A stretch of DNA of 42,810 nt from a virus. The position numbers were made by a program, and so were the translations under genes. The stretch's first letter is position 1. Each line of letters begins with the position of its first letter. The notes beneath the pieces were generated by a model, which saw only the letters and a list, made by a program, of their open reading frames with translations, was not told where the DNA came from and did not search any database. Positions 14,660 through 40,743 of the stretch are shown one piece after another. The stretch is taken from UHGV virus genome UHGV-0330108; one strand, 5' to 3'.

Positions 14660-15786
14660 CTTAGCATCTCCGGTGAGATTGAAAGCCTACCTACTTCCCC
14701 GAACTCTGAACTATAGGTTATGACGTTAGCGGACCTCTTAGACATCCACCCGCCGCGAGAAGCATATGCATCTTTCGCCGCGAGAGTGCGATGCTGCTCC
14801 ACTACCATATTCCTACTTTCTACAATCTTTTGGTGGTGGAGATGCCCGACATGCGCATAACTGTACTCGCTTTCGCCAAATGCTTTTCTGAACTTAGCGA
14901 TCATAATGGGTTCTACCACCTCAAACCGGCATTTATGTCCGTGTGTAAAGAACAGCGTCGTTTTGCCGTGTTGCACCATCTTATAAACATCCGGCGACGT
15001 ATCGACGAACACACGAGGCTCATTGTCGTATAGCGTACTGAACATCTCAGCCAACCAAATCATGCCCGATTCGTCGTGGTTCCCTTGCACGATAAGCAAG
15101 CGAACATTTTTATGCTTAACGAGGGCCATATCGACAACACGGCGGACCATACGAATCATGTAGCGCACAAGTTTCTGATAGCGCGTGTCCGCATCTAGAA
15201 CATGACCACTTGCAGGTGTAACGGCATCCAGACTATCGAAGTGTGCAAGGTCCCCCAGCAGATTAATAACTCCTGTTCCAGCGTCAGGCGCTTTCTGAAA
15301 CGCCGCGTCGAACCATCGAGAGAACAGGTCTTCCGCAATCTTCATATCCCAGTCGTCGCCGCTCTCGTCGGCCCAGGCCAGCATACCGAGATGAAAATCA
15401 GATACCGTGTAAAGATTGAGTAGCTTGTCGTCACGTTTGGCGCGAATGGCTTTAACAGGCGCAACAGGGGTAATCTCCGACTTCATACCTTCAATTACGG
15501 CTTTCATCAACTCGACCTGACGTTCGGCATCGGTGTCAGTCTTAACCCATTGCAGTTTAGTATTGCCGAACTCGTCAACAAGTGACGACGTCCCTTTAAT
15601 CTTGTAGCCGTCCGGTACAAGGTGACTAACGTCGCGCCCGTGGCCTACGCCTTTCTTAGCCAGCTTCGCTTTACGGATGCGAATTACGCGGTCTGAGATG
15701 CCGTATTTACGGGCGATGTCGATATTCTTCATACCGGCGTTCAATTCTTCCTGCAACTGCTCGTCGGTTATTTTCTTCCGGGCCAT
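14656..15786 (-). CDS. calcineurin-like metallophosphoesterase with N-terminal HTH domain
   Basis: Phosphoesterase motifs in order: SDFHLG, LLGDLAHFD, QGNHDE, FFTHGH, GHLHH; N-terminal NIDIARKYGISDRVIRIRKAK is HTH-like. Confidence 0.7.
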   Translation of the reverse strand: MARKKITDEQLQEELNAGMKNIDIARKYGISDRVIRIRKAKLAKKGVGHGRDVSHLVPDGYKIKGTSSLVDEFGNTKLQWVKTDTDAERQVELMKAVIEGMKSEITPVAPVKAIRAKRDDKLLNLYTVSDFHLGMLAWADESGDDWDMKIAEDLFSRWFDAAFQKAPDAGTGVINLLGDLAHFDSLDAVTPASGHVLDADTRYQKLVRYMIRMVRRVVDMALVKHKNVRLLIVQGNHDESGMIWLAEMFSTLYDNEPRVFVDTSPDVYKMVQHGKTTLFFTHGHKCRFEVVEPIMIAKFRKAFGESEYSYAHVGHLHHQKIVESRNMVVEQHRTLAAKDAYASRGGWMSKRSANVITYSSEFGEVGRLSISPEMLR

Positions 15787-27341: not shown

Positions 27342-27653
27342 TCAATTCCTTATATTGTTGGTGCAGGGATAACTATAATAGTTCGCTATTAGGTCGTCAA
27401 CCTCTTCTTTTGTTCCTACTACAAAAACATTTGCGTCACGTTTACGAAGCCGTTTGTGTTCCCGCAACTGATGGGCCTCCGGTTCCGTGTTTTCGTCTTT
27501 CTTCACCTCGACGAACCATATAACCCCTCCAGGAAGGGCTACCAGCAGGTCAGGCGCTCCGTTTCTACCCTCATAAGACAGCTTACGAACGAGGCCACCA
27601 ATGGCCTCGAATTGCTCTTTTGCGTATTTCTGTATTTTTCCTTCCGGGGTCAT
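27342..27653 (-). CDS. VRR-NUC domain nuclease
   Basis: ORF track frame 27342-27668; ATG at 27653; motif GAPDLLVALPGGVIWFVEVKKDE fits the VRR-NUC/PD-(D/E)XK signature. Confidence 0.7.
   Translation of the reverse strand: MTPEGKIQKYAKEQFEAIGGLVRKLSYEGRNGAPDLLVALPGGVIWFVEVKKDENTEPEAHQLREHKRLRKRDANVFVVGTKEEVDDLIANYYSYPCTNNIRN
27372..27400 (-). promoter_or_regulatory. sigma70-like promoter (minus: TTGACG-N17-TATAGT) with palindrome TAATAGTTCGCTATTA in the spacer
   Basis: Read on the reverse complement; lies inside the 3' end of the VRR-NUC gene, upstream of 27045-27338. Confidence 0.55.
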
Positions 27654-30266: not shown

Positions 30267-30896
30267 TTAACGACGGCGGCGTTCGCGGCGCGGTGCTCCA
30301 TCTTCTTCGTCGTCTTCCAGGTCGTCAGTGCTCGCTACTACACTGGAGCCGCCGAAGCGTTTACCTTCGCCCATATACTTGATGCCGAGGATGGTAGCGC
30401 ACAGGTTTTTCCAATCTTTGTGCCACCATAATTCTACAGATACGTTTGCGACACATCCGCTATACACCTGCTCGCCTTCTATTTCCTTTCCATCGATGTT
30501 GAAATCAGGCTCGGTTTGTTTTTCACCTTTAGCTGATGTCATAATTACCGGCTGGCGGTTGTTAGTAGCACGGAAATACAGACCTTCTTCAAAATCCTCA
30601 ATCGGATTGTCACGCATTGCCAGGTCGCGTACGCAGCATTTATCCGCATGGTGGTCTACGCCGTAGTTAGCCTTCATCCATTTCTCGGCGGCAGCTGCCC
30701 CGATTGCCTCTGTTACAACTTCCATAGCGGTGTCGTAAAGTGCATCGATTTGAGGATGATCTGGCTGCATAAGAACAGTAACCTGGTATTTACCCTTAAT
30801 CAGTTTACCGGTTTTCTTATCCTCAGAGTCCGCAGCACGTTCGAATACGTTAACCCAGGCAGTGTTTACTTTACGCAGATTCAGTTTAATACCCAT
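30267..30896 (-). CDS. putative ssDNA-binding protein (T7 gp2.5-like architecture)
   Basis: 209 aa with an acidic tail DDLEDDEEDG and replication-module context; assignment is tentative. Confidence 0.4.
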   Translation of the reverse strand: MGIKLNLRKVNTAWVNVFERAADSEDKKTGKLIKGKYQVTVLMQPDHPQIDALYDTAMEVVTEAIGAAAAEKWMKANYGVDHHADKCCVRDLAMRDNPIEDFEEGLYFRATNNRQPVIMTSAKGEKQTEPDFNIDGKEIEGEQVYSGCVANVSVELWWHKDWKNLCATILGIKYMGEGKRFGGSSVVASTDDLEDDEEDGAPRRERRRR

Positions 30897-30978: not shown

Positions 30979-31211
30979 CCCTTCCAGCCAGTTATTTTCT
31001 CGACTAGCCAGATATACTTGTTTGGCCAGTTCAAATTGCGTACCCACTCAACTTCTTTGGTGTACACCAACTCCTCTAGTTCTATTTTCCTGCACTTAAA
31101 GGCGGTATACACGAAAAACGGAAGAAGCATTATAACTAGCGGCAGTATCAGAGCGTGATAAGTTAAAAACGCCACAAAACCGCCAATTACTCTGAACATT
31201 TTACGAATCAT
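30975..31211 (-). CDS. small membrane protein (78 aa from MIRKMF...)
   Basis: ORF track frame 30975-31241; ATG at 31211 overlaps the exonuclease stop, with GAGGAGGA upstream; hydrophobic core. Confidence 0.45.
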   Translation of the reverse strand: MIRKMFRVIGGFVAFLTYHALILPLVIMLLPFFVYTAFKCRKIELEELVYTKEVEWVRNLNWPNKYIWLVEKITGWKG

Positions 31212-32473
31212 TCCAAATCCTCCTCTGTTACCTGATTCCACTCAGGCCGTTTGTCGTCTGCCGTTGCAACACATGGCGCGCCTGGTTTACGGGTAATAAA
31301 CGGCTCAAGCGCTGCCATCTCATCCGCCGAAAGAACTTTTGCTGCCTCCGTAGGGGACATCAATACCTCTTTTTTTAGAATGTCGCCGTGTGACACTTCA
31401 ATCGCATCGGCATCTTTCCACGCACGATTACCGGGACGGCCTTCAACCAGTTTGTACCCCGGCACTTTCTTGCCGGAATGCAAAGCAGCAGCCATCGCTT
31501 TCTCAACCTTGCCGATGTGCTGGCGCAACAACGGCAACTTCTCATACTCAGCTACGAGTTGCTCTGGCGTAAGTTCCAGCACAAAGTCGTCTTCCGGTTC
31601 TTCTGCCAGTACCGCGTTAACGGTTTTTGTACGCGCAGCGCATTGTTCTGAGAAACGACACCACTGACAACCATCGACCGAAGGCTTAAAGTCTGACGCT
31701 TTAAGGTTCTTCTTGCCGCGGGAATAGGCGTCAAGAGCCAACAGTGCACGTTTCTGTGCAAACTTAGCAAACAGTTCAAGGCCTTTAACCGAGATGTCCC
31801 ACTCCGACGCGCCACCGGCGCACGGCTGGAAGATGACCAGACGAACGGTTGTTATGTTATAACGTCTCTTGAGTCTGCGATAAACACCGAGAGCGTAAAG
31901 CATAAGCTGCTTGTTTTCTTTCGCTTCGACACGATGCCGTCCTGTTTTAAGGTCACCGATAATGAGCATGTGCTCGTCTGTGTTAGCCAGTTCCTGTACG
32001 GCAACAAGGTCGGCGGTTCCGAATGTCTCAACGCCTTCGTACCCTGGATGTAATACCTCAGTAAGATTGACACGCATTTCCAGCTTGACGTAAGTAGCAA
32101 CGTCGATAATCGGTTTGCAGTAGTCGGTGTACTTTCGCACCTGCTCAATCATGTCAGCCGTAATTAGTACAGCGCCTTTCATATGGCTGATTAGCGCCTT
32201 AATCTGGCCTTTACCCTCATCCAGCACGTAAGCGCCGACTTCACGCTCTAACGGCAACGCGGTTCCGCGAATATAGGCGTTTAGATGTACCTCGGCTATG
32301 GTGTGCATGGCCGTGCCTAATACGGCGGCTTTACCGGACGTGTTAGGGATGTCTTTTTCACAGGCCAGCGATGCACTGCACGCCAGCCACTTTTTAGCGC
32401 CTGACGGCGACAGTAAGGCGTGTACGTCGTTATTGCCGCCGCGTTCCTTTAAAATCATACCCTGTTCTCCCAC
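31208..32473 (-). CDS. PD-(D/E)XK exonuclease (RecB/Cas4-like, with Cys cluster)
   Basis: Motifs GTADLV...IGDLKTG...KQLMLYALG; N-terminal LSPSGAKKWLACSASLAC and C-terminal CQWCRFSEQC cysteines. Confidence 0.75.
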   Translation of the reverse strand: MGEQGMILKERGGNNDVHALLSPSGAKKWLACSASLACEKDIPNTSGKAAVLGTAMHTIAEVHLNAYIRGTALPLEREVGAYVLDEGKGQIKALISHMKGAVLITADMIEQVRKYTDYCKPIIDVATYVKLEMRVNLTEVLHPGYEGVETFGTADLVAVQELANTDEHMLIIGDLKTGRHRVEAKENKQLMLYALGVYRRLKRRYNITTVRLVIFQPCAGGASEWDISVKGLELFAKFAQKRALLALDAYSRGKKNLKASDFKPSVDGCQWCRFSEQCAARTKTVNAVLAEEPEDDFVLELTPEQLVAEYEKLPLLRQHIGKVEKAMAAALHSGKKVPGYKLVEGRPGNRAWKDADAIEVSHGDILKKEVLMSPTEAAKVLSADEMAALEPFITRKPGAPCVATADDKRPEWNQVTEEDLE

Positions 32474-38873: not shown

Positions 38874-38960
38874 TGTTATGGTGCGGGTAATTATTGCGGG
38901 TGAGAAGATATACCGCACGCAAACGGTAAGTTCGAGTTAATAGATGTAGGAGAGCAGATT

Positions 38961-39458
38961 ATGAGTAACAAAAACGAAGTATTCGAGTACCTGATTGACC
39001 AACTACGGCAGCAGGTAAACAGCAACCAGTGCGAAGACCTGACGCATGAGGTGCAGTCACTTAAGAATCAGTTACGTGACGCTTCGGCGCTGGTGGCTGA
39101 GTTGCAAGAAACAATAAAACTAATGAACGAGGACTTCAACCGCGTAACCAGACGCGGCGGCTCACTGCCTAAAGGGCAGAGCTACGTAGTAGGTGAACAC
39201 GGATCCGAGCAATCAGGTTGCCGTAAGGAAGATACTCAGGAATGTGAGCACTCTTGGATTATTATGCCCGGGTTGTTTCTCAGTGAAGGCAATCCGAACA
39301 ACGTTCCTGGTAGCGAGCTTTGTTCTAAATGTGGTAAACGTGAGTGGGATGACGAGGAATATAAACCGAAAAACGATACACAGGAATGCGAGCACGATTG
39401 GGTTCTTGATGCCGACGAGGATTATTTTGTGTGCCGCGCATGTGGAGAGACAACATGA
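38961..39458 (+). CDS. cysteine-rich protein with internal repeat (putative zinc-binding)
   Basis: Internal repeat DTQECEHSW / DTQECEHDW plus CSKCGK and CRACGE pairs. Confidence 0.5.
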   Translation: MSNKNEVFEYLIDQLRQQVNSNQCEDLTHEVQSLKNQLRDASALVAELQETIKLMNEDFNRVTRRGGSLPKGQSYVVGEHGSEQSGCRKEDTQECEHSWIIMPGLFLSEGNPNNVPGSELCSKCGKREWDDEEYKPKNDTQECEHDWVLDADEDYFVCRACGETT

Positions 39459-39658
39459 CCAGCATCCTTTTTATCTGGGTATTGTCAGCGGGCCAGATGC
39501 AACTGGCGGCAACAGAAACGTTTTACTCGATGGAGGCGTGCCAGTCAGCGGCACGCGCCGCAGAGAACGCGCACTTCCTGTTTCAGGGCGACAAGCCAAG
39601 CGATTCAGAGGTACGCGCTATCTGCTCACCTAAGCGACTCGGTAAACAGGAGAAGTGA
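39455..39658 (+). CDS. small protein with signal-peptide-like N-terminus (67 aa)
   Basis: ORF track frame 39431-39658; ATG at 39455 overlaps the upstream stop; hydrophobic N-terminus MTSILFIWVLSAGQMQLAA. Confidence 0.5.
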   Translation: MTSILFIWVLSAGQMQLAATETFYSMEACQSAARAAENAHFLFQGDKPSDSEVRAICSPKRLGKQEK

Positions 39659-39663
39659 TTATG
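39620..39663 (+). repeat. 44-bp gene-junction repeat, copy 1 (ATCTGCTCACCTAAGCGACTCGGTAAACAGGAGAAGTGATTATG)
   Basis: 41/44 identical to 40039-40082; spans C-terminal codons, stop, RBS and start. Confidence 0.7.
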
Positions 39664-39963
39664 AGCACCGAAGCGATGAAGAAAAAGGTTTTGAACGCTT
39701 TGCAAGAAGCTGTGAACTATGGTGCTATCAAAACGTTCACAGAAAGGCACGTCGGTGAAGTGACAATTCACGGATTTAATAATAACAAAAACGGAATTGC
39801 AGCAATCATGCTTTTAAAGAATAGTGGTGATACATTTATCATTTACGTTGGCGGATATGAGCTTATCGTTGATGATGTGTTCATCACCTGCGCCGATGGA
39901 CTTAATCCCATGTTAGCGTTTGAGCGTCGCGGAATACGTGTTGCAACATTTGGAGGGAAGTGA
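39661..39963 (+). CDS. hypothetical protein (100 aa), AT-rich
   Basis: ORF track frame 39655-39963; ATG at 39661 preceded by AGGAG inside the junction repeat. Confidence 0.5.
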   Translation: MSTEAMKKKVLNALQEAVNYGAIKTFTERHVGEVTIHGFNNNKNGIAAIMLLKNSGDTFIIYVGGYELIVDDVFITCADGLNPMLAFERRGIRVATFGGK

Positions 39964-40038
39964 ATATTATGACATCCAACCTTAAGGCCCGTTTGTTACC
40001 CATAAAGCCTCACGTGCTGTATAAGATGGACCAGCTCT

Positions 40039-40082
40039 ATCTGCTCACCCAAGCGACTTGGTAAACAGGAGAAATGATTATG
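40039..40082 (+). repeat. 44-bp gene-junction repeat, copy 2
   Basis: Three mismatches to copy 1, all at third codon positions of the frame encoding ICSPKRLGKQEK. Confidence 0.7.
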
Positions 40083-40262
40083 GTACAGCGATATACCTAC
40101 GACCAGATATTTGGGTTCACTCCTGATGTTGAGGGCGTGTTAGTGCTTTACGAAGATTACGCGAAACTTGAAGCCGAGTTACAGAAATACAAAGACCAGT
40201 TCCCGGATTATGTCGAGTGCGCGAACTGTGGGTCAGTTACACATGTGGAAGGGGTGGAGTGA
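40080..40262 (+). CDS. hypothetical protein, MVQRY paralog A (60 aa)
   Basis: ORF track frame 40074-40262; shares MVQRY and YEDYA-LE-EL segments with 40262-40453. Confidence 0.5.
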   Translation: MVQRYTYDQIFGFTPDVEGVLVLYEDYAKLEAELQKYKDQFPDYVECANCGSVTHVEGVE

Positions 40263-40453
40263 TGGTACAGAGATACGAAGTGCGAGGAACTGAATTAGGT
40301 GGTGACGCATTCTACGAAGATTGGGTTGAGGTGGTTCGCCAAGAAGATTACGCGGAGCTGGAGCGAAAACTGCGTAACTTCGCCGACCAAGTATTGTACG
40401 CACCTTGCTCGAAAGTTACCGAAGAAATGGCGATGGAGATTCTCGGCCTATGA
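40262..40453 (+). CDS. hypothetical protein, MVQRY paralog B (63 aa)
   Basis: ORF track frame 40217-40453; ATG at 40262 overlaps the upstream stop (TGATG). Confidence 0.5.
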   Translation: MVQRYEVRGTELGGDAFYEDWVEVVRQEDYAELERKLRNFADQVLYAPCSKVTEEMAMEILGL

Positions 40454-40743
40454 GCCTCGCAACTGACATCCTGAAACGAAGCGGTCTTGCGCCGCTGTCA
40501 CCGAGAGCGAACACCCAGATATACAAGCGTCGCCGTAACGCGCTGTACCCAGAGATTCAGGCCAGATGCAAAGCGGTCCGCGCCTGTGGATTCCAGAACG
40601 GGAAGGCCGTGAATCTCGGAGAGTTCAAGACAAAGGAACGCGCCGCTATCGCTAATCGGTTATTTAATTACTGGAAATCGCTGGGCTACGATGATATCCC
40701 GACGAAACCACAGAGACGACAATATATCTGGCGTCATAAATAA
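40450..40743 (+). CDS. hypothetical basic protein (97 aa)
   Basis: ORF track frame 40405-40743; ATG at 40450 overlaps the upstream stop. Confidence 0.5.
   Translation: MSLATDILKRSGLAPLSPRANTQIYKRRRNALYPEIQARCKAVRACGFQNGKAVNLGEFKTKERAAIANRLFNYWKSLGYDDIPTKPQRRQYIWRHK

What the first reader, a model, noticed from the sequence alone, without database searches (positions are those of the whole stretch)
39620..40082. 44-bp gene-junction repeat with synonymous-only differences, and a likely vestigial gene copy
Copy 1 (39620-39663) and copy 2 (40039-40082) each span the last 12 codons of an upstream frame, the stop, an AGGAG RBS and the next start codon. The three mismatches are all third-position synonymous changes in the frame encoding ICSPKRLGKQEK, yet in copy 2 that frame has no start codon. 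The short ORF 39969-40064 (31 aa, good RBS) begins MTSNL like the intact upstream gene (MTSIL), suggesting a duplicated gene that later decayed.
Basis: seen in the sequence. Interest (0 to 1): 0.6.

Follow-up and report, generated by a model that had tools for sequence, protein, structure and literature searches.

The report
Foreign gene insertion flanked by duplicated junction
The 44-bp repeat is the scar of a small gene that this E. coli siphophage (Kagunavirus) took from an unrelated myophage (Wifcevirus); the insertion duplicated the last 49 bases of a gene junction, which is a clear but ordinary example of how phage genomes become mosaics.

Summary
The repeat is real. It is 49 nt long (39615-39663 and 40034-40082), with a 44-nt core carrying 3 mismatches, and none is expected by chance. 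The three mismatches are all synonymous in the ICSPKRLGKQEK frame, and that frame has no start codon in copy 2. The window is a Kagunavirus-like phage. In hundreds of relatives, gene A (39455-39658) is followed directly by an MVQRY-type gene such as gene C (40080-40262), or by gene D. The 364 bp between the copies (39664-40027) are 80-90% identical to Wifcevirus myophages. Gene B (39661-39963) matches WFC_00098. The 31-aa ORF is the first ~20 codons of the Wifcevirus 54-aa gene WFC_00099, run out of frame into a 49-nt remnant of gene A. It is not a decayed copy of gene A (22/60 nt identity against 49/60 to Wifcevirus). The synonymous-only differences are natural allelic variation of intact gene A: the copy-2 haplotype CCC/CTT/AAA ends intact gene A in 2 of 41 related loci, and CTC is private to copy 1. 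The same architecture occurs in one other phage lineage from gut metagenomes. B is under purifying selection (dN/dS 0.07-0.17), and its function is unknown. This kind of structure is already known in phages, so interest is low to moderate.

The parts
39455..39658 (+). Gene A, 67 aa (MTSILFIWVLSAG...ICSPKRLGKQEK), a conserved Kagunavirus/Jerseyvirus small gene (phrog_3766, unknown function). It is the recipient gene whose 3' end was duplicated.
   Evidence: ORF. phrog_3766 at E 1.6e-36. 50 related loci. It is a ~95% conserved island with non-homologous flanks on both sides.
39615..39663 (+). Junction copy 1 (J1): the last 14-16 codons of gene A, AGGAG, TGA, and the ATG now used by gene B.
   Evidence: The CTC Leu codon is private to this window; all 41 related loci carry another codon, CTT in 40 of them.
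39661..39963 (+). Gene B, 100 aa: the acquired cargo gene and homolog of Wifcevirus WFC_00098. It is intact and under purifying selection. Function unknown.
   Evidence: 80-90% DNA identity to 28 Wifcevirus-size records. Protein alignment and identity matrix. dN/dS 0.07-0.17. No Pfam or PHROG hit. Model pLDDT 80, with no PDB match.
39664..40027 (+). Wifcevirus-derived segment: gene B plus the first ~20 codons of the WFC_00099 homolog.
   Evidence: blastn gives 39660-40027 against WFC, Mansfield and an ENA Wifcevirus contig. Sequences read.
39969..40064 (+). A 31-aa chimeric ORF (MTSNLKARLLPIKPHVLYK|MDQLYLLTQATW). It is the 5' fragment of Wifcevirus gene 99 fused out of frame to the gene A remnant. 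It keeps the native GGAGG ribosome-binding site, and its stop lies just before the AGGAG of gene C.
   Evidence: The peptide is identical in the sister lineage and was called as a gene there.
40028..40033 (+). Right joint. These 6 nt (GGACCA) could not be assigned to either parent, and the uncertainty extends to 40038.
   Evidence: Wifcevirus homology ends at 40027. Gene A homology starts at 40034. Wifcevirus GTAAGCGC and gene A GTACGCGC match 7/8 at this place (read).
40034..40082 (+). Junction copy 2 (J2): a vestigial 3' end of gene A that supplies the Shine-Dalgarno and ATG of gene C.
   Evidence: Its haplotype CCC/CTT/AAA is found at the end of intact gene A in 2 of 41 loci, one of which (L034) has the same downstream gene C.
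40080..40262 (+). Gene C, 60 aa (MVQRYTYDQIF...), phrog_29624. In several relatives (for example XY2, G AB-2017 and L034) it is the gene directly after gene A.
40262..40453 (+). Gene C2, 63 aa (MVQRYEVRGTEL...), a tandem paralog of C in the variable slot.
   Evidence: (D8).
40450..40743 (+). Gene D, 97 aa (MSLATDILK...), phrog_9632. It is the conserved right border of the variable slot.

Best explanation
The repeat is the scar of a horizontal gene acquisition.

Ancestral state: a Kagunavirus-type siphophage had gene A, then the junction J (end of A, AGGAG, TGA, ATG), then gene C.

Donor: a Wifcevirus-like myophage infecting the same E. coli host carried gene B followed by gene 99.

Left crossover: it lies at or just before the start codon. 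Both phages carry nearly the same translation-initiation motif there, GGAGAA(N)TGATTATG, so gene B took over the ribosome-binding site and ATG of J.

Right crossover: this was an illegitimate or microhomology join between about codon 20-24 of donor gene 99 and about codon 52 of gene A. That point is 49 nt upstream of the left crossover on the Kagunavirus map. As a result, the last 49 nt of gene A plus the ribosome-binding site and ATG are present twice.

Copy 1 ends the intact gene A and starts B. Copy 2 is non-coding for A and serves only as the translation-initiation region of gene C. The truncated gene 99 reads out of frame into copy 2, giving a 31-aa chimeric ORF.

The three synonymous differences arose while each copy was part of an intact gene A in different lineages. 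Two are standing polymorphisms now carried by copy 2, and one is a private change in copy 1.

Shown: foreign origin, the boundaries, the duplication, the allelic origin of the differences, and purifying selection on B.

Inferred: the order and mechanism of the two crossovers, a role for the phage's own ssDNA-binding protein and nuclease, and the functional use of copy 2 as gene C's ribosome-binding site.
For: (1) Relatives lack the insert.
- 293 GenBank phage records match the flanks in two pieces that lie about 390-410 bp apart, against 810 bp in the query. None covers at least 80% of the query.
- In 41 IMG/VR loci, gene A is followed directly by MVQRY-type genes or by gene D.

(2) The segment 39664-40027 matches only 66-72 kb Wifcevirus records, at 71-90% identity. 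There B and the 54-aa gene 99 are full length and adjacent. The B family has 13 clusters, all on ~68 kb contigs except the sister-phage cluster.

(3) The 31-aa ORF is 49/60 identical to WFC_00099 and 22/60 identical to gene A. Proteins A and gene 99 are unrelated.

(4) The same joints occur in an independent lineage that is 92% identical: IMGVR_UViG_3300045988_026856 and at least 23 metagenome contigs. There is 100% identity across 39995-40088. This rules out an assembly chimera and indicates a single event.

(5) The copy-2 haplotype occurs in intact gene A alleles, and CTC is private to copy 1.

(6) The motif AAAGGAGAATTGATTATGAG directly precedes B in ECML-117 and FEC19, and GGAGGAATGATTATGAG precedes it in AV128. 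This compares with ACAGGAGAAGTGATTATG in J.

(7) B has dN/dS 0.07-0.17, including between the two Kagunavirus copies. dS values of A, B, C and D are 0.20, 0.42, 0.26 and 0.35, which fits one old acquisition.

(8) The window encodes an Enc34-type ssDNA-binding protein and a PD-(D/E)XK nuclease.

(9) A published analogue exists: an inserted gene flanked by a ~50-bp repeat of gene 3' ends in mycobacteriophage Island3 (PMC3029335).
Against: - The exact donor is not sampled. The best B match is only 89.7% identical in DNA.
- The last 33 nt of the gene 99 fragment differ from all known Wifceviruses at 6 positions, and 6-11 nt at the right joint cannot be assigned. The microhomology claim for the right crossover is therefore weak.
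- B in the window belongs to the WFC/CWP003 allele clade. In those phages B is preceded by gene 97, not by the shared motif. The left crossover may therefore have used only TATG(AG).
- The 6-nt TGAATA indel and four synonymous differences at the B/99 boundary match Wifcevirus polymorphisms. This implies either later exchange with Wifceviruses or a more complex history than one event.
- No experiment shows that copy 2 is needed for gene C expression.
Confidence: 0.85

Rival explanations
1. One reading: gene A was tandemly duplicated, and the second copy decayed to the MTSNL ORF plus the ICSPKRLGKQEK tail.
For: Both ORFs start M-T-S-x-L, and copy 2 does carry the C-terminal codons of gene A.
Against: - Similarity to gene A is confined to the last 49 nt. 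The 5' 60 nt are 22/60 identical to gene A and 49/60 identical to Wifcevirus gene 99.
- There is no protein similarity.
- The intervening gene B is foreign.
Confidence: 0.02
2. The arrangement A-J-B-99'-J-C is ancestral in Kagunaviruses. Other members lost it by recombination between the two junction copies, and the transfer went from Kagunavirus to Wifcevirus.
For: Direct repeats of 44-49 nt would allow precise deletion. The A-to-D slot is variable and often empty.
Against: - Gene 99 is truncated and frame-broken in the Kagunavirus but full length (54 aa) in Wifceviruses.
- B is present in nearly all sampled Wifceviruses, as several deep allele clades (74-97% identity), but in only two closely related Kagunavirus lineages out of more than 340.
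Confidence: 0.04
3. The junction, or its 15-nt core GGAGAA(N)TGATTATG, is a dedicated recombination linker that repeatedly mediates exchange of small-gene cassettes within and between phage genera. On this view the insertion is more than a one-off accident. This overlaps with the best explanation and does not exclude it.
For: - The motif sits exactly at mosaic boundaries in both genera. In Kagunaviruses it marks the left edge of a slot holding 0-5 genes.
- In Wifceviruses it heads the operon, where gene 97 is present or absent, and it occurs twice in AV128.
- There are three copies of GGAG-N4-GATTATG in the window against 0.01 expected.
Against: - The junction is not more conserved than the rest of gene A.
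- Only this one insertion among 50 loci shows a duplicated junction.
- The right joint does not use the motif.
- The motif is largely a Shine-Dalgarno sequence plus spacer plus ATG, so convergent selection for translation could explain it.
- There is no RNA or DNA structure and no recombinase gene in the insert.
Confidence: 0.1
4. Copy 2's ICSPKRLGKQEK frame is expressed by a programmed +1 frameshift from the 31-aa ORF, and selection on that product explains the synonymous-only differences.
For: The frames differ by +1, and the 3/3 synonymous pattern is unlikely under neutrality.
Against: - Between 40006 and 40038 there is no slippery heptamer and no known +1 shift site (read).
- There is no stimulatory structure.
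- The differences are fully explained by pre-existing alleles of intact gene A.
Confidence: 0.02
5. Assembly artefact: a chimeric contig built from co-assembled Kagunavirus and Wifcevirus reads.
For: Short repeats and mixed phage populations can mislead assemblers.
Against: - Identical joints occur in independently assembled contigs from several samples that differ from the window by 8%.
- B differs by at least 10% from every Wifcevirus and evolves under purifying selection between the two Kagunavirus lineages.
Confidence: 0.01

Closest known systems
Mycobacteriophage Island3 gene 68 insertion relative to Brujita (Pope et al. 2011, PMC3029335)
   Same: An extra small gene is absent from the close relative. 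The last ~18 codons (~50 bp) of the upstream gene are repeated at the end of the inserted segment. The authors interpret this as recombination involving ~50-bp sequences at gene ends.
   Different: - There the repeated tail is in frame and forms the C-terminus of the inserted gene, and the donor is unknown.
- Here the repeated tail is out of frame and non-coding.
- Here the donor genus is identified and the left joint lies in a shared translation-initiation motif.
Short conserved boundary ('linker') sequences at module junctions in lambdoid phages (Susskind-Botstein modular theory; HK620/HK97 comparisons). Cited from my own knowledge and as refs 21-22 in PMC3029335.
   Same: Mosaic transitions fall exactly at gene boundaries. 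A short sequence shared by otherwise unrelated genomes lies at the left joint.
   Different: - The shared sequence is only ~15 nt and is essentially a ribosome-binding site plus start codon.
- The partners are virulent phages of different genera, not lambdoid temperate phages.
- The right joint is not at a boundary sequence.
Illegitimate-recombination model of phage mosaicism (Hendrix and colleagues), and relaxed homologous recombination by phage annealing proteins (Martinsohn 2008; De Paepe 2014). From my own knowledge.
   Same: The right joint is a join inside coding sequences with little or no homology. It survived because it preserved expression of the neighbouring genes. The phage encodes its own ssDNA-binding protein and nuclease.
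   Different: Nothing here tests which enzymes made the joints.
Morons (independent transcription units inserted between genes of temperate phages; Juhala et al. 2000). From my own knowledge.
   Same: One extra accessory gene sits between two genes that are adjacent in relatives.
   Different: No promoter or terminator of its own was found. The gene is expressed from a duplicated ribosome-binding site within an existing operon of a virulent phage.
PeSL mobile regulatory cassettes of T4-type phages (Arbiol et al. 2010). From my own knowledge.
   Same: A repeated expression signal flanks shuffled small early genes in a hyperplastic region.
   Different: PeSL is a promoter plus stem-loop repeated many times per genome. 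Here the repeat is a gene 3' end plus ribosome-binding site, present twice, with no promoter or stem-loop.

Membership tests
Mosaic insertion flanked by a duplicated gene end (Island3 gp67/gp68 type) | The inserted gene or genes are absent from close relatives, which have the two flanking genes adjacent. | tested here: met
Mosaic insertion flanked by a duplicated gene end (Island3 gp67/gp68 type) | A direct repeat of about 50 bp, made of the 3' end of the upstream gene, lies on both sides of the insert. | tested here: met
   49 nt at 92% identity, 39615-39663 and 40034-40082.
Horizontally acquired gene (inter-genus transfer) | The insert is homologous to a contiguous, complete gene set in another phage group, and is truncated at the joint in the recipient. 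| tested here: met
   Only the last 49 nt are similar. The 5' 60 nt are 22/60 identical, and there is no protein similarity.
Moron | The inserted gene is flanked by its own promoter and terminator. | tested here: not met
   Promoter-like and terminator-like sites are at the shuffle expectation, and none flanks B appropriately. This is a consensus scan only.
Transposable element or homing-endonuclease insertion with target-site duplication | A transposase or homing-endonuclease gene, terminal inverted repeats, and a short (2-14 bp) target duplication. | tested here: not met
   The insert encodes only B (no Pfam or PHROG hit) and a gene fragment. There are no inverted repeats at its ends. The duplication is 49 bp.
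Programmed ribosomal frameshift site | A slippery sequence in the overlap, plus a stimulatory structure. | tested here: not met
   No X XXY YYZ heptamer or known +1 site in 40006-40038 (read). Fold z-score about 0.
Conserved boundary ('linker') sequence recombination | The same short sequence is present at the joint in both parental genomes. | tested here: inconclusive
   Left joint: 15 of 16 nt are shared with ECML-117, FEC19 and AV128 just upstream of B. However, the nearest B alleles (WFC, CWP003) have another gene there. Right joint: the sequence is not shared.

The most novel reading that the evidence does not exclude
The 15-nt translation-initiation motif GGAGAA(N)TGATTATG may be more than a ribosome-binding site. 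It could act as a portable linker shared by unrelated virulent coliphages (Kagunavirus and Wifcevirus). Phage annealing and nuclease proteins would use it to swap small accessory-gene cassettes into hyperplastic slots. On this reading the 31-aa chimeric ORF is a translated new gene that keeps gene C translationally coupled.
Probability: 0.08. Interest if true: 0.55.

Novelty: new member of a known kind. Interest (0 to 1): 0.3.

Why it matters
This is a fully resolved, base-level example of gene flow between two unrelated virulent E. coli phage genera, a ~43 kb siphovirus and a ~68 kb myovirus. The donor gene order, both joints and the recipient's pre-insertion state can all be reconstructed.

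It shows how an insertion can survive inside a tightly packed operon: by duplicating the upstream gene end and ribosome-binding site, both the new gene and the old downstream gene keep a start region.

It is also a caution for sequence-only reading. Differences that are synonymous only, in a dead fragment, can be inherited from alleles that were alive in other genomes, and do not by themselves show selection on the fragment.

It does not open a new biological question. The cargo gene B is unknown and might repay study as an accessory or anti-defence candidate, because it has been kept under purifying selection in a new genomic background.

Tried and rejected
- RNA structure at the junction: folds of both copies and of a relative have z-scores of about 0. 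Rejected.
- Own promoter or terminator (moron): counts are at the shuffle expectation. Rejected.
- Homology of gene A to WFC_00099: none.
- Function of the genes: Pfam and PHROGs give only unknown-function families for A, C, C2 and D, and nothing for B, the 31-aa ORF or WFC_00099.
- Structure of B: the AlphaFold model has pLDDT 80. There is no PDB match with E below 0.6. BFVD gives only uncharacterised phage proteins (FEC19 166-aa protein, Dompiswa phage TSP7_1).
- Search for the donor allele or further recombinants carrying the right-joint sequence: viral contigs, metagenome contigs and genome contigs returned only the one sister contig.
- Special conservation of the junction: it is not more conserved than the rest of gene A. 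My first sample was biased, because it required exact matches to the junction. I replaced it with the protein-based sample.
- Independent acquisition of B in the two Kagunavirus lineages: dS of B (0.42) is not clearly outside the flanking genes (0.20-0.35), so one old event suffices. The shared TGAATA indel polymorphism remains unexplained by simple vertical descent.
- A longer homology of copy 2 to gene A with a 2-nt insertion (GATGGACCAGCT against GAGGTACGAGCT, 9/12): suggestive only, and not distinguishable from chance or from the Wifcevirus sequence.

Full report
**Observation**

- Copy 1 is 39620-39663 and copy 2 is 40039-40082, with 3 mismatches in 44 nt.
- No second match appeared in any of 100 dinucleotide-preserving shuffles.
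- The similarity extends 5 nt further left, giving 49 nt at 92% identity, spaced 419 nt apart.
- Each copy contains the last 12 codons of the frame ICSPKRLGKQEK, an AGGAG inside those codons, TGA, two bases, and an ATG.
- The three mismatches (CCT/CCC, CTC/CTT, AAG/AAA) are all synonymous. Only 21% of possible substitutions in these codons are synonymous, so 3 out of 3 has a neutral probability of about 0.01.
- In copy 2 the frame opens only at 40006 and has no start codon.

**What the window is**

The region matches hundreds of Guernseyvirinae siphophages (Kagunavirus of E. coli, Jerseyvirus of Salmonella) at 85-95% identity. It lies in a rightward operon of small genes just upstream of the holin and endolysin genes.

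I name the genes as follows:
- A: 39455-39658, 67 aa, phrog_3766.
- B: 39661-39963.
- The 31-aa ORF: 39969-40064.
- C: 40080-40262, MVQRYTYDQIF..., phrog_29624.
- C2: 40262-40453, MVQRYEVRG....
- D: 40450-40743, MSLATDILK..., phrog_9632.

All are of unknown function.

**The key result**

In GenBank phages the flanks of the repeat match in two pieces that lie about 390-410 bp apart, against 810 bp in the window. None of 293 records covers 80% of the query. Reading five of them shows gene A, one junction, and then directly an MVQRY gene or another small gene.

The DNA between the two copies (39664-40027) matches a different set of phages: 28 records of 66-72 kb, all Wifcevirus myophages, at 71-90% identity.

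In phage WFC, gene WFC_00098 (101 aa) is the homolog of B. It is followed immediately by WFC_00099, a 54-aa gene that begins MTSNLKARLLFIKPHVPYKISKR....

The window's 31-aa ORF, MTSNLKARLLPIKPHVLYK-MDQLYLLTQATW, is therefore the first ~20 codons of that Wifcevirus gene. After a 6-nt stretch of unassigned origin it runs out of frame into the 49-nt remnant of gene A.
- Its first 60 nt are 49/60 identical to WFC_00099 and only 22/60 identical to gene A.
- The two proteins show no similarity.
- The MTSIL/MTSNL resemblance is coincidental; even the Ser codons belong to different families.

**Is it real, and how old is it?**

A search for the novel right joint found one other phage: IMG/VR contig 3300045988_026856, which is the same as an ENA human-gut contig of 44,632 bp. 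Nothing was found in bacterial genomes.

That phage is 92% identical to the window over 39451-40275. It has the same order A-J1-B-31aa-J2-C and is 100% identical across 39995-40088. Its version of B (cluster P0002) is carried by at least 23 contigs of 42.8-44.7 kb from several samples, all with the same gene order.

The structure is thus inherited and is not an assembly chimera.

Synonymous divergence between the two lineages is 0.20 (A), 0.42 (B), 0.26 (C) and 0.35 (D). This is compatible with one acquisition before the lineages split.

B is intact in both lineages, with dN/dS 0.17 between them and 0.04-0.15 against the WFC and CWP003 Wifcevirus alleles. The cargo is therefore a functional gene.

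One complication remains. The 6-nt TGAATA indel and four synonymous differences at the B/99 boundary mirror polymorphisms that also segregate among Wifceviruses. This suggests some later exchange with Wifceviruses.

**Why the differences are synonymous**

I drew a sample that did not depend on the junction, by searching with the gene A protein. In it, the Pro codon is CCT in 34 loci and CCC in 6. The Leu codon is CTT in 40 of 41. The Lys codon is AAG in 25 and AAA in 12.

The copy-2 haplotype CCC/CTT/AAA ends an intact gene A in two loci. One of them (L034) is followed by the same gene C. CTC occurs nowhere else and is a private change in the window's functional copy 1; the sister phage has CTT there.

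All three differences are therefore changes that happened, or segregate, in intact gene A under purifying selection. No selection on the dead copy is needed, and no frameshifting either. There is no slippery site in 40006-40038 and no structure.

**Mechanism (inferred)**

Left joint. The Kagunavirus junction reads ACAGGAGAAGTGATTATG|GT. In Wifceviruses ECML-117 and FEC19, B is preceded by AAAGGAGAATTGATTATG|AG, and in AV128 by GGAGGAATGATTATG|AG. The recombinant reads ...GGAGAAGTGATTATG|AGCACC. The crossover therefore lies in the 8 identical bases TGATTATG of a motif that matches at 15 of 16 positions. In WFC and CWP003, whose B alleles are the closest, that motif heads the preceding gene 97. 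With such a donor the homology would be only TATG(AG).

Right joint. Wifcevirus homology ends at 40027 and gene A homology begins at 40034. At this place Wifcevirus gene 99 has GTAAGCGC and gene A has GTACGCGC, but the window's sequence (GGACCAGCTC) matches neither well. The donor allele is evidently unsampled, and the microhomology is only a suggestion.

Because the right joint re-enters the Kagunavirus 49 nt upstream of where the left joint left it, the junction is duplicated.

The functional consequence is inferred. Both B and C keep a Shine-Dalgarno sequence and start codon in a tightly packed operon. The 31-aa ORF stops at 40062-40064, three bases before the AGGAG of gene C, so ribosome delivery to C may be preserved.

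The window encodes an Enc34-type ssDNA-binding protein (30327-30896, minus strand) and a PD-(D/E)XK/DUF2800 nuclease (31211-32458, minus strand). These could promote short-homology recombination, but that is not tested here.

**Context**

Gene A is a ~95% conserved island whose flanks on both sides are non-homologous among relatives. The junction itself is no more conserved than the rest of A.

The interval between A and D holds 0 to 5 small genes across 41 loci. Most begin MVQRY, and they form one divergent family even after those five residues are removed.

Other rearrangements hit the same genes. One contig fuses the upstream gene in frame to the last 17 codons of A, and another joins codon 29 of A to the middle of C. 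This is a plastic accessory region where illegitimate events are tolerated.

**Comparison with what is known**

The structure is the same kind as the Island3 gene 68 insertion in Cluster I mycobacteriophages. There the last 18 codons (~50 bp) of the upstream gene are repeated at the end of the inserted gene, and the authors invoke recombination at ~50-bp sequences (PMC3029335).

It also fits the two classical models of phage mosaicism: short conserved boundary sequences (left joint) and illegitimate recombination filtered by function (right joint).

It is not:
- a moron, as it has no promoter or terminator of its own;
- a transposon or homing-endonuclease insertion, as it has no such gene, no inverted repeats, and a 49-bp duplication;
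- a tandem duplication of gene A.

**Cargo**

B has no Pfam or PHROG family. Its family comprises 13 clusters in the 5.8-billion-protein database. Its model (pLDDT 80; one helix followed by eight strands) has no PDB match, and in BFVD it resembles only uncharacterised phage proteins, including a 166-aa Wifcevirus protein. Its function remains unknown.

**Verdict**

The feature is a well-resolved inter-genus gene acquisition with a 49-bp junction duplication. It is a new member of a known kind, with interest about 0.3.

The most novel reading still open is that the shared 15-nt initiation motif serves as a cross-genus recombination linker, and that the chimeric ORF is a functional new gene. I put that at about 0.08.

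Noticed in passing
window 40080-40453; loci L027-L066 downstream of gene A: The interval between conserved genes A and D is a hypervariable slot holding 0-5 small genes in 41 Kagunavirus loci. Most begin MVQRY (ATGGTACAGAGATA) and then diverge strongly, yet they form one single-linkage family even with the first 5 residues removed. The window has two tandem members, C and C2.
   Followed up: partly
L076 1707-2054; L075 1944-2275: Two other rearrangements hit gene A. In L076 the upstream ~165-aa gene is fused in frame to the last 17 codons of A (...GSEVRAICSPKRLGKQEK), near the same breakpoint as copy 2. In L075 gene A is truncated after codon ~29 and joined to the middle of gene C. Genes A and C therefore appear dispensable, and the site is prone to rearrangement.
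   Followed up: partly
window 39961-39968; Wifcevirus loci L001, L023, L024, L025: A 6-nt indel (TGAATA) between the stop of B and the start of gene 99 is polymorphic in Wifceviruses: absent in WFC; present in Mansfield and AV128, and as TGAATAC in FEC19. The same polymorphism separates the window (present) from its sister phage L008 (absent). This hints at repeated exchange between the Kagunavirus insert and Wifceviruses.
   Followed up: partly
L001 1188-1212, L022 786-812, L024 239 and 786: In Wifceviruses the motif GGAGAA(T)TGATTATGAGT heads the small-gene operon. Gene 97 (MSYDERFG) is present or absent directly after it, bounded by repeated ATGAGT starts. AV128 carries the motif twice. This is the same style of cassette variation at start codons as in the Kagunavirus.
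   Followed up: partly
window 39231-39263 and 39375-39407: There is an internal 33-nt repeat (82% identity) inside the 165-aa gene 38961-39458, encoding a repeated DTQECEH(S/D)W motif. Each copy is followed by a CxxC pair, which looks like two tandem zinc-ribbon-like modules. The gene is phrog_6094, function unknown.
   Followed up: no
window 38949-38963, 39649-39663, 40068-40082: GGAG-N4-GATTATG occurs three times in the window against 0.01 expected. The third site is the start of the 165-aa gene (AGGAGAGCAGATTATGAG). Its flank TAGGAGAGCAGAT is also 92% complementary to ATCTGCTCACCTA at the start of junction copy 1 (inverted repeat I3). This is probably chance.
   Followed up: no
window 39661-39960 (protein B): The predicted fold of B (helix plus eight strands) matches a 166-aa uncharacterised Wifcevirus FEC19 protein and a 99-aa Dompiswa phage TSP7_1 protein in BFVD (E 8e-5 and 4e-4, TM 0.70). 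This suggests a wider family of small phage proteins with no annotation.
   Followed up: no
window 30327-30896 (-), 31211-32458 (-), 27372-27653 (-), 14662-15786 (-): The window encodes an Enc34-type ssDNA-binding protein (PF10991) and a PD-(D/E)XK/DUF2800 nuclease, confirmed by Pfam. By similarity to the annotated relative phiSD1, it also encodes a Holliday-junction resolvase and a DNA-repair exonuclease; the resolvase fragment had no Pfam hit and the exonuclease was not scanned. Together these could form a phage recombination toolkit.
   Followed up: partly
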